DNA from: Octopus sinensis
Lineage: Eukaryota
Reading direction: 5' to 3'
Assembly: GCF_006345805.1 (NCBI RefSeq)
Contig: NW_021825867.1
Coordinates: forward strand, 1-14,118
Length of the DNA stretch: 14,118 nt
The notes beneath the pieces were generated by a model. It did not search any database and had not been told where the DNA came from. It was given only the letters and a program-made list of their open reading frames with translations. The translations under genes and the position numbers were made by a program. Shown piece by piece: positions 803 through 14,118 of the stretch (its first letter is position 1; every line of letters begins with the position of its first letter).

Positions 803-1455
803 AACATGGTGAATCAACAGAAATGTCTTTATTTGGCTCTTGAAAATCCGAGAAAACTGCACGAAAGACCACTGCACAGCCCAAAAATGACGGCCTGGTG
901 TGCTGTTGGAAAAGCTGCTGTCATTGGTCCTTAATTTTTTGAGGACAATTATGTAAATGCTGTTACTGTGAACTCCGAGTGTTACATCGAGATAATAAAC
1001 AACTTCTTTGCGCCTGAATTACGACGAAAATGTATGCCTATTGGATGTGTGTGGTTTCAGCAGGATGGGCCGACAACCCACACTGCCAAAACATTAATGA
1101 ACGACTCAGGTTCCAGGTTTCCTGATTTGTCCATGTGTGATTATTTCTCGTGGGGAAACCTCAAGGCACGTGTGTATGCGTATAAGTTCCGTACATTGGA
1201 CGAATTGAAGGAAGCTATTCGCGTGGATGTCGCCCACGTTGATCAAGCAATGCTAGAGAGAGTGGAAGCCAACTTTCAAGAACGCCTTCAGAAATGCTTC
1301 AATAAAAACAGATACTACATGATGGATATGTTTTTCCCACTTGATTTTAAAAAATGCTATTTCAATACGAACACATTGGTGTCAATAAAATTCGTTTGCA
1401 GCTACAATTAATATCGTGATTTTTCAAAAACATCCGTCCTCTCTGACCAACCCTG
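803..1455 (+). mobile_element. Tc1/mariner DNA transposon remnant, 3' half (catalytic domain of a D,D,D-type transposase plus right TIR), pseudogenised
   Basis: Frame from ATG 806 reads MVNQQKCLYLALENPRKLHERPLHSPKMTAWCAVGKAAVIGP*FFED...VTVNSECY...WFQQDGPTTHTA...PDLSMCDYFSWGNLKARVY, matching Tc1/mariner motifs (VNxQN.RYW..ENP, LHSPK.TVWC, IGPYFFE, WFQQDG, PDL..CD.F.WG.LK). It has one in-frame TAA, and only 24 aa separate the 2nd and 3rd D, implying an internal deletion. Ends in TIR 1422-1455 (...caaccctg). Confidence 0.92.
1422..1455 (+). repeat. Terminal inverted repeat of the Tc1/mariner element (right end)
   Basis: Reverse complement cagggttggtcagagaggacggatgtttttgaaa matches the TIR at 4167-4200 at 28 of 34 positions. 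Confidence 0.85.
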
Positions 1456-3444: not shown

Positions 3445-3636
3445 GGTGTGTATGTGTGTTTGTATCTCTACCCCTCCGTTCGTCAATCCGTGCGGGTGTT
3501 TTTACCTCCCGGCAACTTAGAAGTTCAGCAGGAGATTCAGATAGAATAAGGACTAGCAGCAATCAATTTGTCCCCAAACCCTCCAAGATTGGCCGCAGTC
3601 AAATGACTAAAACTAGTGAGAGAGAAAAAGCAAAGT
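3445..3636 (+). mobile_element. SINE 3' half (diverged)
   Basis: gtgtgtttgtatctc...ggtgtttttacctcccggcaacttagaagttcagc...gatagaataaggactag...tggccgcagtcaaatgactaaaactagt is the reverse-complement homologue of 2470-2700. Confidence 0.75.
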
Positions 3637-3649
3637 AATACATATATAT

Positions 3650-4200
3650 ATTTGCCTCCAGAGTTGCTTCCATTTGACGTGCGAAGTTAAGCCACTGTGC
3701 ATAGTCCCATGGCTTCAACTGTTGCCCATTGACCAATTTGTACGGGTGGAAATGCAGATCTTTCCGATCGATTAGCAATGGCAAGTTTAGTGAAATGCTT
3801 CCGAGCAGAGCGATGCGGACTCCGTATGGAAGCTTATCAGACGCGTTCCACATTTTCTGGGGTCCGTACCGTTCATGGAGCTTCCACTAGTCTCCTATTC
3901 ATTAATGTACCTCGTGTACGAAGTGCATTCACCCAATATAAATTTGTGCTATGGGTGGGAACAGCCTGAGTTCGGTGAATGTTGAATTGGCGCTGAAACT
4001 CACGCTGAACACTTGTGACAGACTCATTCTTCACGTAATTGTCGTAGTCAAACACGCGATGCTCTAAGCGCCATAGCATCACCTGAAAAGAAAACAATTA
4101 AGACATCCAGGACCGAATGGTACCTGTCGGACATATGACCCTCCCTCTGGGGCTGAGTAATAGCCATTTCAAAAAAATTCGTCCTGTCTCTCCCACCCTG
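3650..4200 (-). mobile_element. Tc1/mariner DNA transposon remnant, 5' half (left TIR plus HTH/DUF4817-like N-terminus), pseudogenised
   Basis: Minus strand starts TA|CAGGGTGGG at 4202-4200. Translation: WRLEHRVFDYDNYVKNESVTSVQREFQRQFNIHR..VPT...RTRGT...*TVRTPENVERV**ASIRSPHRSARKH, then a frameshift to RKDLHFHPYKL...QQLKPWDYAQWLNFARQMEATLEAN. RTPENV, SP.RS.R and DLHFHPYK are typical of the family. Confidence 0.9.
4167..4200 (-). repeat. Terminal inverted repeat of the Tc1/mariner element (left end), flanked by TA
   Basis: Minus strand reads cagggtgggagagacaggacgaatttttttgaaa; TA target dinucleotide at 4201-4202. Confidence 0.85.
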
Positions 4201-12737: not shown

Positions 12738-12743
12738 ACGTAC

Positions 12744-12895
12744 GCAGTCGAACGAAACGACCCCACGACTTTCTTTGTAACTTGTTTAATGGTGTTAAAC
12801 CTGTTTGGAAACACGGACGTAAACACACCAACATCGGATGTCAGGTGATGGTGGGGGTCAAACACAGACACACACACTCACACACACATATATAT
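12744..12895 (-). mobile_element. SINE internal fragment, truncated at its internal CA/TA tract
   Basis: agtcgaacgaaacgacccc...ggacgtaaacacaccaacatcggatgtcaggtgatggtgggggtcaaacacagacac is homologous to 2530-2700. The expected head is replaced by the LRRC42-like fragment. Confidence 0.78.
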
Positions 12896-13183
12896 ATGGA
12901 CAATGTGGACTTGGTTGAATCCTTCCAACACTTTCCTGACCTTCTTGGTAAAGAAATCTTCCTTGCTGCCGAACGCAATGAACAATTGGCTCAACCAGAT
13001 CCTACTGTTATCCAACGTCTTGAACTCTTTTCCAAAGCCTTCAGCACTGAATTCCTACAGAGTTTATATTTAAGTCGAGAACATCTGCTGGTGAACTATT
13101 TGTCTGATGATTTCCATCTGTTTGTTGGTGTGCAGTCCTTGAACCTCAGCCACTGTGGATTATCTGATGACCATGAAATTATA
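12896..13183 (+). pseudogene. LRRC42: Captured/retrocopied fragment of a leucine-rich repeat-containing protein 42-like coding sequence (96 open codons)
   Basis: MDNVDLVESFQHFPDLLGKEIFLAAERNEQLAQPDPTVIQRLELFSKAFSTEFLQSLYLSREHLLVNYLSDDFHLFVGVQSLNLSHCGLSDDHEII is colinear with human LRRC42 as I recall it (DNVDHIDSLIGFPEQIAEKLFSAAE...LQKFTEAYGSLVLCSLCL...LTCLDLSCCKLGDEHELL). There is no polypyrimidine/AG acceptor upstream or GT donor downstream; both ends run into TA tracts. Confidence 0.8.
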
Positions 13184-13230
13184 TATACATATATATATAT
13201 AATTTCATGGTCATCAGATAATCCACAGTG
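13151..13230. repeat. Perfect 37-bp inverted repeat (fold-back) with 6-nt loop
   Basis: 13151-13187 cactgtggattatctgatgaccatgaaattatatata is the exact reverse complement of 13194-13230; loop catata. Confidence 0.97.
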
Positions 13231-13284
13231 CCCCACCATGGCCGCAGCCTTCGGGCTAAAACATTTTTAAGGATTTAAGGATTT
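13228..13284 (+). mobile_element. SINE/LINE 3' tail with UUCG stem-loop and short tandem (taaggatt) end
   Basis: gtgccccaccatggccgcagccttcgggctaaaacatttttaaggatttaaggattt shares catggccgcag...aaac with the other SINE tails in this window. Confidence 0.65.
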
Positions 13285-13342
13285 ATATATACATACATGT
13301 ATATATATACATACATAATATATATATATATATATACATATC

Positions 13343-13550
13343 TGTGACCGCGTGTGTACTGTTGGCGATTTTTTTTCCTCCGTCTTCCCTTCTCTGGATC
13401 TTTCCTTTTCCTATGTTTCTGACGAAGAGCTCCGCTCGAAACGTAAAACCCTCCTTCTTCCCTTCCTTCCTGAGCGTCCAATAATACTATTTTTGTTCTA
13501 CGCCCTCGCGTTGTTGTGGTTTCTCTTTGTGTTTTCATGTTTGGATTAAC
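13343..13550 (+). mobile_element. ~207 bp hammerhead-bearing element in (TA)n (copy 2)
   Basis: Inverted homologue of 3001-3207 with the same two termini; ends ggattaac-(TA)n. Confidence 0.8.
13415..13449 (+). ncRNA. Minimal type I hammerhead ribozyme motif with intact core
   Basis: GUUU CUGACGA A GAGC ucc GCUC GAAA CG UA^ AAAC. Core CUGANGA 13419-13425, GAAA 13438-13441, GUA triplet 13443-13445, stem I GUUU/AAAC, stem II 4 bp, palindromic ACGU in place of a full stem III. Confidence 0.75.
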
Positions 13551-13603
13551 TATATATATACATATATATATCAGCAACAAAATTATCCAGAATTGATTAT
13601 TTG

Positions 13604-14117
13604 TATAGACATTGATATTGTTATTATTATCGAGGACAAAACAAGTAGTCCATAATAACAACAATACTAATATGGATGGTAGCATGCCTAAATCAGCGCT
13701 ATATAGTTATGGAATTAAAATTGTATTAATCAGAGGACGCATTGAAGTGTCTACCCGCTAGAAATAAGAGTTAAAACCCTCATTTGTCCCCCCTTCCACA
13801 AATTACACTGAAAATAACAGATACAACAATATACGCCGCACGAGCGAACCGGAAGGAGAGCTCTCACATAGAATAAAGCAATATATTTAATGGAACAGGT
13901 ATATATGTGGACCGGTTTCTGGTTTGACACGATGTTCTTACTTTCTTTAGCACTTCTTAACATTTAGAAGCATCCTCCCAGTTGAAATCTACTGGCATCC
14001 AAAATGTGCATAGCTTCAGTGTGAAAGTATTATATAGATATTAATATTGCTATTATTATCGAATCAATACAAATGTCCATAATAACAACAATAATAATAT
14101 AGGTGGTTGCAGGTCTA
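13604..14117. repeat. Diverged direct repeat (~85 bp seen twice, period ~430 bp), runs off window end
   Basis: 13604-13690 tatagacattgatattgttattattatcga...gtccataataacaacaatactaatat aligns with 14033-14117 tatagatattaatattgctattattatcga...gtccataataacaacaataataatat. Confidence 0.8.
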
Positions 14118-14118
14118 G

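What the first reader, a model, noticed from the sequence alone, without database searches (positions are those of the whole stretch)
12896..13183. Host-gene (LRRC42-like) coding fragment captured inside a SINE's microsatellite, with TA microhomology at both ends
Seen: 96 uninterrupted codons resembling LRRC42, with no splice signals. The fragment starts inside atatatATGGAC and ends in GAAATTATAtata, so the coding sequence merges into TA tracts at both junctions. It sits where the SINE head should be. The lack of stops suggests a recent event. Inference: templated insertion of mRNA-derived or genomic sequence at a broken (TA)n site, by retroelement template switching or microhomology-mediated repair. 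The surrounding 214-aa ORF fuses SINE-derived and LRRC42 sequence.
Basis: partly seen in the sequence, partly recalled or inferred. Interest (0 to 1): 0.72.

Follow-up and report, generated by a model that had tools for sequence, protein, structure and literature searches.

The report
Dead LRRC42 fragment in octopus microsatellite
A real 282-base copy of part of one exon of the octopus LRRC42 gene sits at the edge of a TA repeat, followed by a folded-back copy of its own end and the tip of a LINE retrotransposon; it was likely pasted in from messenger RNA millions of years ago and is decaying like ordinary genomic debris.

Summary
Window 12899-13180 copies codons 30-123 of one exon of octopus LRRC42 (parent on contig C4, 97% identical). 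It spans no exon junction, so the proposed RNA test is uninformative. TA microhomology exists only on the right: the copy stops at the exon's best match to the TA tract (TATACA). The left junction has none, and the ATG is not parental. Copy-specific alleles occur in sequencing runs of three organism labels, so it is no misjoin and not recent. Changes on the copy are 9 non-synonymous to 2 synonymous (neutral); on the parent, 0 to 3. Likely history: a TA end primed reverse transcription inside the mRNA, then a LINE tip landed in the same tract and its join folded back. A DNA template is not excluded. Earlier scan notes report similar RNA/LINE-tail fusions on other DNA of this genome. Ordinary pseudogene debris with a tidy mechanistic scar.

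The parts
12738..12898 (-). Body of an abundant SINE, lacking head and tail here; ends in its internal CA/TA microsatellite plus TG (likely the SINE's own CG, decayed)
   Evidence: 1551 candidates, 40 scored; 75-92% to fetched copies; 13 motif-selected rows read TA tract, then CG in 12 and TG in 1, then AC/AT-GGGC-like sequence
12899..13180 (+). 282-nt copy of codons 30-123 of the first coding exon of LRRC42; 8 substitutions against the parent; no intron, no exon junction
13181..13200 (.). TA spacer containing TATACA, the 6-nt match to the parent just past the copy's end; centre of the palindrome
13201..13230 (-). 30-nt inverted duplicate of 13151-13180; with the TA spacer it forms a 40-bp palindrome (98% complementary, no gap between arms)
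   Evidence: I1; -58.4 kcal/mol, z -14.7; contig 13201-13270 in run X1
13228..13283 (+). Last 56 nt of a LINE (relatives carry AP endonuclease and reverse transcriptase); first 3 nt (GTG) shared with the inverted duplicate
   Evidence: 308 exact 20-mer matches, 0 control; (RVT_1 E 6e-20 upstream in L032)
13284..13341 (.). TA tract behind the LINE tip, the likely priming site of the LINE insertion
   Evidence: 56 of 95 sampled copies of this tail are followed by (TA)n
13342..13547 (+). Separate ~205-nt young repeat inserted in TA repeats; carries a hammerhead-like CTGACGA..GAAA motif (seen by eye; no Rfam hammerhead hit)
   Evidence: 2532 candidates, best 95-97%
13572..14118 (+). Older repeat family (67-93% to other copies, many in adjacent inverted pairs), running to the contig end
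12629..13270 (+). Incidental 213-aa open frame across CA repeat, SINE, LRRC42 copy, hairpin and LINE tip
   Evidence: no Pfam family for the whole frame

Best explanation
This is a neutrally decaying 282-base copy of one LRRC42 exon that was likely made in two steps: a broken TA-repeat end likely primed reverse transcription inside LRRC42 mRNA, and a 56-base LINE tip likely landed later in the same TA tract, its join folding back to copy 30 bases in reverse. Step 1 (inferred): a bottom-strand 3' end in the SINE's TA tract paired with UAUACA in the mRNA; a retroelement reverse transcriptase copied 282 nt towards the 5' end; the cDNA was joined to the left flank without microhomology. Step 2 (inferred): a LINE primed in the TA tract to the right and stopped after 56 nt; hairpin- or snap-back-primed synthesis copied the last 30 nt of the LRRC42 copy in inverse orientation and closed the join through a 3-nt GTG overlap. 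Shown: the anatomy, the parent exon, the junction sequences, presence in independent runs, and the neutral substitution pattern. Inferred: the RNA template, the enzyme and the order of events.
For: Parent exon at 97% on another contig. The copy ends at the only site in the 477-nt exon with a 6-nt match to the TA spacer (3 of 467 start positions, all one site; post hoc test), and has 0 nt of microhomology on the left. A match at the sense 3' end and none at the 5' end is the polarity of priming on mRNA (internal priming, PMC5322556 section 16). The inverted arm carries the copy's A at the 13181 mirror position, not the parent's T, so it was likely templated on the finished junction. The tail is a LINE 3' end. 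Tail-only insertions are common: 41 of 95 copies keep 30 nt or less upstream of the motif, and 56 of 95 are followed by (TA)n. The same LINE tail is fused to a full-length 5S rRNA at L035, 1 Rfam hit in 94 loci scanned, so this enzyme likely does copy host RNA. Copy alleles are in runs X1, X2 and X5. Substitutions: copy 9 non-synonymous to 2 synonymous against 78.6% expected; parent 0 to 3; Fisher p 0.027.
Against: No exon junction, poly(A) tail or verifiable target-site duplication, so RNA origin is not shown. The right microhomology needs a 2-nt slip (parent GAAATT-TTATACA, copy GAAATT-ATATATACA). Fold-back is not a habit of this LINE: 0 of 63 other 5' junctions show it (4 of 1362 control positions do). 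No second mRNA capture was found: of 43 open frames beside tails, 2 hit Pfam, and both are single-copy and look like native exons. The palindrome arms are identical over 30 nt, which cannot separate one event from two. One of the 11 copy changes (12922) was polarised by inference, as it is not listed's table.
Confidence: 0.55

Rival explanations
1. DNA-templated repair: a break in the TA tract invaded the LRRC42 gene at TATACA, a repair polymerase (polymerase-theta type) copied 282 nt, and hairpin-primed synthesis added the inverted piece; no mRNA was involved.
For: The copy is colinear with genomic DNA and has no RNA-only mark. Hairpin-primed inverse-repeat insertions in AT-rich flanks are a described polymerase-theta scar (PMC7165422 passages). 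Fold-back is absent from 63 other junctions of this LINE.
Against: Those insertions are described as local and mostly 3-30 bp, up to 157, while the donor here is on another contig. Both ends stay inside the exon. Microhomology is only at the end where mRNA priming predicts it. Distant templated insertions in human cells were argued to come from RNA (PMC5110952 passages).
Confidence: 0.25
2. One reaction: the LINE's reverse transcriptase made the whole LRRC42-hairpin-tail unit in a single insertion, as an mRNA/LINE chimera by template jumps or twin priming.
For: The main fragment and the LINE tip are co-oriented, as template switching predicts (PMC13174262 passages). Divergence is similar: 5 of 282 on this copy's lineage, and 1 difference over the tail's first 35 nt from the family majority. 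A 5S/tail chimera exists. Earlier scan notes put small-RNA fusions at about 50-57 nt from a LINE end; this tip is 56 nt.
Against: A simple switch would join sense LRRC42 directly to the tail; instead TA repeat and an inverted piece intervene. Tips this short are common without any recognised captured RNA (41 of 95), so the length proves little.
Confidence: 0.15
3. A functional new gene or exon: the 213-aa fused frame or the hairpin is expressed and kept by selection.
For: The frame is open in this assembly and over the 198 nt seen in organism C. The hairpin is very stable.
Against: The substitution ratio is neutral. An open frame is expected by chance (0.63). Six putative RNA runs hold 0.22 of the words, about the 0.206 expected from the parent alone; these are contigs, so this is weak.
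Confidence: 0.03
4. Assembly artefact: a misjoin or chimeric read at TA repeats on a small unplaced contig.
For: The window is the whole 14-kb unplaced contig C2338. No listed contig spans the whole stretch, and the tool skipped both TA junctions.
Against: Differences from the parent are 8 substitutions and no indels. X2 has a contig identical to the copy over 12904-12952. X5 has a separate contig sharing the copy's derived G12988 and T13125. X1 has a 70-nt contig over 13201-13270 that crosses the hairpin/LINE joint, with 30 letters on the short side, one under the tool's 31-letter rule. Two flank stretches have no second full copy in the assembly.
Confidence: 0.02

Closest known systems
Tailless retropseudogenes (Noll et al. 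2015, PMC5322556; passages and section 16 read)
   Same: 3'-truncated RNA copy without poly(A), ending where the target end can pair inside the RNA; 5'-truncated mRNA-derived forms are described.
   Different: Described for mammalian L1 at TT/AAAA sites with target-site duplications; here the primer is a TA repeat, no duplication can be verified, and RNA origin is inferred.
Class 2 templated sequence insertions (Onozawa and Aplan 2016, PMC5110952; abstract and passages read)
   Same: Patch from a distant locus, no poly(A), microhomology at a junction, donor intact.
   Different: Human polymorphisms; this copy is shared by several organism labels and has a LINE tip and hairpin beside it.
RNA/LINE chimeras: U6-L2 of platypus (PMC4476161, section 10 read); mRNA/L1 chimeras (PMC13174262, abstract and passages read)
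   Same: Host RNA piece upstream of, and co-oriented with, a short LINE 3' end.
   Different: There the RNA joins the LINE directly, and the mRNA cases mostly use first exons and splice sites with long L1; here a TA spacer and an inverted duplicate intervene and no splice site is used.
Snap-back 5' junctions of R2-mediated insertions (PMC11371274, passages read) and inverse-repeat templated insertions of polymerase theta (PMC7165422, passages read)
   Same: A short inverted copy of neighbouring DNA at the 5' join of an insertion, closed by a few bases of microhomology.
   Different: Seen in engineered human or mouse cells; here a heritable natural case with the hairpin centred on a TA repeat. 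The enzyme is not identified.

Membership tests
LRRC42 gene copy | Sequence identity to LRRC42 and an intact parent elsewhere | tested here: met
Processed pseudogene (classical retrocopy) | Loss of introns across an exon junction | tested here: inconclusive
   Copy lies wholly inside one 477-nt exon
Processed pseudogene (classical retrocopy) | 3' poly(A) tail | tested here: not met
   3' end joins TA repeat
Tailless retropseudogene | 3' end at a site complementary to the target end (internal priming) | tested here: met
   6-nt TATACA match, best site in the exon, with a 2-nt slip
Tailless retropseudogene | Target-site duplication | tested here: inconclusive
   Both flanks are TA repeat and the right flank holds further insertions; the SINE head is not in the contig
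Tailless retropseudogene | RNA template | not testable with these tools
   Only indirect polarity and exon confinement
mRNA/LINE chimera by template switch | Host RNA co-oriented with the LINE 3' end | tested here: met
   Both on + strand
mRNA/LINE chimera by template switch | Direct junction of sense RNA copy to LINE sequence | tested here: not met
   20 nt of TA and a 30-nt inverted piece intervene
mRNA/LINE chimera by template switch | Both parts arrived together (empty site in a relative) | not testable with these tools
   No relative's assembly is held; two flank searches found no empty allele
Polymerase-theta inverse-repeat templated insertion | Short inverted copy of flanking DNA with microhomology at the second join | tested here: met
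   30-nt inverse repeat, 3-nt GTG overlap; the enzyme itself cannot be tested
Functional retrogene | Purifying selection on the frame | tested here: not met
   9 non-synonymous to 2 synonymous against 78.6% expected
MicroRNA precursor | Processed small RNAs from both arms | not testable with these tools
   Only sub-threshold Rfam microRNA hits, as any perfect hairpin gives

The most novel reading that the evidence does not exclude
Octopus TA microsatellites act as primers that capture pieces of mRNA, and fold-back at the same self-complementary repeats turns the captured piece into a perfect gene-matching hairpin of pre-microRNA size. Here an 80-nt hairpin would yield small RNAs complementary to LRRC42 mRNA: a repeat-driven route to new regulatory small RNAs in cephalopods.
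Probability: 0.05. Interest if true: 0.75.

Novelty: new member of a known kind. Interest (0 to 1): 0.27.

Why it matters
As it stands it is one more templated gene-fragment insertion. Its value is as a legible scar: priming site, fold-back and LINE tip are all readable, and the copy is shared across organism labels, so it could serve as a presence/absence marker. It would matter more if TA-primed mRNA capture proved common in octopus genomes, or if such hairpins made small RNAs against the parent gene.

Tried and rejected
Left-end TA microhomology: 0 nt. A looser GAC overlap with the SINE's own CGAC needs an extra base and was not counted. Twin-priming inversion of one SINE (body minus, tail plus): rejected, because the tail has the LINE's loop and 3' end, not the SINE's. 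Fold-back as a family habit: 0 of 63 junctions. A looser first test flagged 7 of 69; the four I inspected were more distant inverted repeats or a 12-nt arm overlapping the LINE, and the other three were not inspected. More mRNA captures beside this LINE tail: 43 open frames from 63 junction flanks, 2 Pfam hits (SMPD4-like at L029, CAPZA at L111), both single-copy in the assembly; Pfam has low power on short frames. Sampling note: 92 loci (95 motif copies) from the first 100 listed of 308 matches, contigs C1-C6 only. Empty-site allele: none for two flank stretches. Expression: RNA runs are contigs only and look parent-only; no proof of absence. Organism D (run X8) shows one unbroken 1306-nt contig and no second version; contigs cannot prove absence. 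ESM Atlas gave only LRR look-alikes. tRNA scan: 0. Rfam gave no hammerhead hit. A 16-nt hairpin motif in DNA letters and 'LRRC42' were absent from 3 supplement files of PMC9699675; file 2 was not searched and RNA-letter tables would be missed, so this says little. Paper searches for an LRRC42 pseudogene or retrocopies in octopus listed nothing on point (listings only). No structure prediction was run; it would not bear on the question.

Full report
Setting. The window is the whole unplaced contig G000:C2338 of a 2.72-Gb assembly. The best protein hit is named LRRC42 of Octopus sinensis (95% identity), and its record's contig length equals that of C4 here, so the genome is likely that species.

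The observation. The 96 open codons are there. A DNA search finds the parent at C4:106300191-106300475, minus strand, 97% identical. The parent is the first coding exon (residues 1-131 of 289), 477 nt from acceptor to GTAAGT donor; the next exon follows on the same locus. The copy is 12899-13180, codons 30-123. It starts 169 nt after the acceptor and ends 26 nt before the donor, so it spans no junction and holds no intron.

Left junction. The parent reads GTAGCT|GACAAT, the window TATATG|GACAAT; exact microhomology is 0. In 13 motif-selected rows from fetched loci the SINE's TA tract is followed by CG (12) or TG (1) and then its unique sequence. The window's TG is thus likely the SINE's own decayed CG, and the ATG is an accident. 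The break lies at the edge of the microsatellite. The SINE head is not found to the right in the contig; later insertions may have pushed it past the contig end.

Right junction. The parent continues GAAATT-TTATACA, the copy GAAATT-ATATATACA. TATACA is the only 6-nt match to the TA spacer in the exon (3 of 467 start positions, one site; post hoc). A match at the sense 3' end and none at the 5' end is the polarity expected if a TA end primed synthesis on mRNA (internal priming, PMC5322556 section 16). A DNA template could give the same picture.

Positions 13151-13230 form a 40-bp palindrome with no gap, centred in the TA spacer: 13201-13230 is an inverted copy of the fragment's last 30 nt. It mirrors the copy's junction, not the parent's, so it was likely templated on the finished insertion. 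It overlaps by GTG with 13228-13283, the last 56 nt of a LINE. A 20-mer of this tail has 308 exact matches; long copies carry a reverse transcriptase upstream (RVT_1), and relatives also carry an AP endonuclease. The clade was not tested; CR1/L2-like is my recollection of the motifs. In 95 sampled copies, 41 keep 30 nt or less upstream of the motif and 56 are followed by (TA)n. One of the loci carries a full-length 5S rRNA fused in sense to the tail (L035; the only Rfam hit in 94 loci scanned). Fold-back at the junction was seen in 0 of 63 other copies, so the hairpin is a one-off. Inverse-repeat joins of this kind are described as snap-back junctions of R2 insertions (PMC11371274 passages) and as hairpin-primed polymerase-theta insertions (PMC7165422 passages).

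Is it real? Yes. Of four runs laid on 12738-13283, X2 has a contig identical to the copy over 12904-12952, beside a parent contig. X5 has two versions over 12958-13155, one sharing the copy's derived G12988 and T13125. X1 has a mixed contig with the copy's alleles at 12988 and 13003. X8 has one unbroken 1306-nt contig and no second version. The TA junctions themselves were skipped by the tool, and no listed contig spans the whole stretch.

Age and selection. With X8 and the protein alignment as outgroups, 5 of the 8 differences arose on the copy (4 non-synonymous; the synonymous one at 12922 is inferred) and 3 on the parent (all synonymous). The X5 version adds 6 private changes (5 non-synonymous). 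Copy 9:2 fits the neutral 78.6%; parent 0:3 does not (p 0.01; Fisher p 0.027). The copy shares K at 13035 with organisms B and C where D and a further outgroup have T, so it arose after the split from D and before the B/C split. Organism names are coded. With the scale used in PMC13282606 (distance 0.09 = 25 My, section 7), my own arithmetic gives roughly 5-14 My. For context, the sinensis/vulgaris split is put at 2.5 My and the bimaculoides split at 34 My (10.1101/2023.05.16.540928 passages). 'Recent' is not supported: no stop is expected 63% of the time after 11 changes.

Function. None is shown. The 213-aa frame runs largely through stop-free repeat. Six putative RNA runs hold 0.22 of the query words against 0.206 expected from the parent alone; these are contigs and weak evidence. 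The hairpin folds at -58.4 kcal/mol, as any perfect palindrome would; its Rfam microRNA hits are all under threshold.

Mechanism. Best reading (0.55): TA-primed reverse transcription inside LRRC42 mRNA, then a LINE tip in the same tract with a fold-back join. Rivals: DNA-templated repair (0.25), a single chimeric reaction (0.15), a functional gene (0.03), artefact (0.02). It works like a tailless retropseudogene or a class 2 templated insertion (PMC5110952 abstract and passages). It fails membership as a classical processed pseudogene (no poly(A)) and as a direct template-switch chimera (no direct join; PMC4476161 section 10; PMC13174262 passages).

Novelty. A new instance of known kinds. Two paper searches (listings only) showed nothing on this copy. 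Earlier, unreviewed scan notes describe small-RNA/LINE-tail fusions and one LRWD1-like/LINE-tail fusion elsewhere in this genome; I checked only the 5S case myself. One supplement file of PMC9699675 that I did not search may bear on the small-RNA idea.

Noticed in passing
L004 (G000:C4:106332473-106332757, +): A second LRRC42-like gene, 44-46% identical in protein, lies 32 kb from the parent in opposite orientation; likely an old tandem paralogue.
   Followed up: no
L035:1352-1470: Full-length 5S rRNA fused in sense to the same LINE tail.
   Followed up: partly
L029:1534-1803: A LINE tip sits antisense directly 5' of a single-copy SMPD4-like exon that ends in a GTGAGT donor; no AG lies between the tip and the start of the Pfam match, so the tip may have hit the exon or its acceptor.
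   Followed up: partly
L111:274-441: LINE tip in the intron before the last exon of a single-copy F-actin capping protein alpha gene; native exon, not a capture.
   Followed up: yes
window 13342-13547: Young ~205-nt repeat (95-97% to best copies) flanked by TA repeats in all 6 copies displayed, with a minimal hammerhead-like motif; Penelope-type terminal repeat by recall and by earlier scan notes, not tested here.
   Followed up: partly
window 13228-13250 and L019: The LINE tail and the abundant SINE's tail share the start of their 3' end but differ in the loop and terminal repeat: a candidate LINE/SINE partner relation.
   Followed up: no
window 12958-13155, run X5: The copy-type contig has half the depth of the parent-type contig (28 against 57): heterozygous, hemizygous or a bubble effect.
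   Followed up: no
window 12781-12810: About 30 nt in the SINE body differ wholly from the family sequence (loose ends at 12780 and 12811-12819): a possible further small replacement.
   Followed up: no
window 935-1411 and 3599-3886: Open frames that look like Tc1/mariner transposase remnants (by eye; not tested).
   Followed up: no
L048, L080, L090: Tandem or repeated LINE tips, including two identical 160-nt junctions in L048.
   Followed up: no
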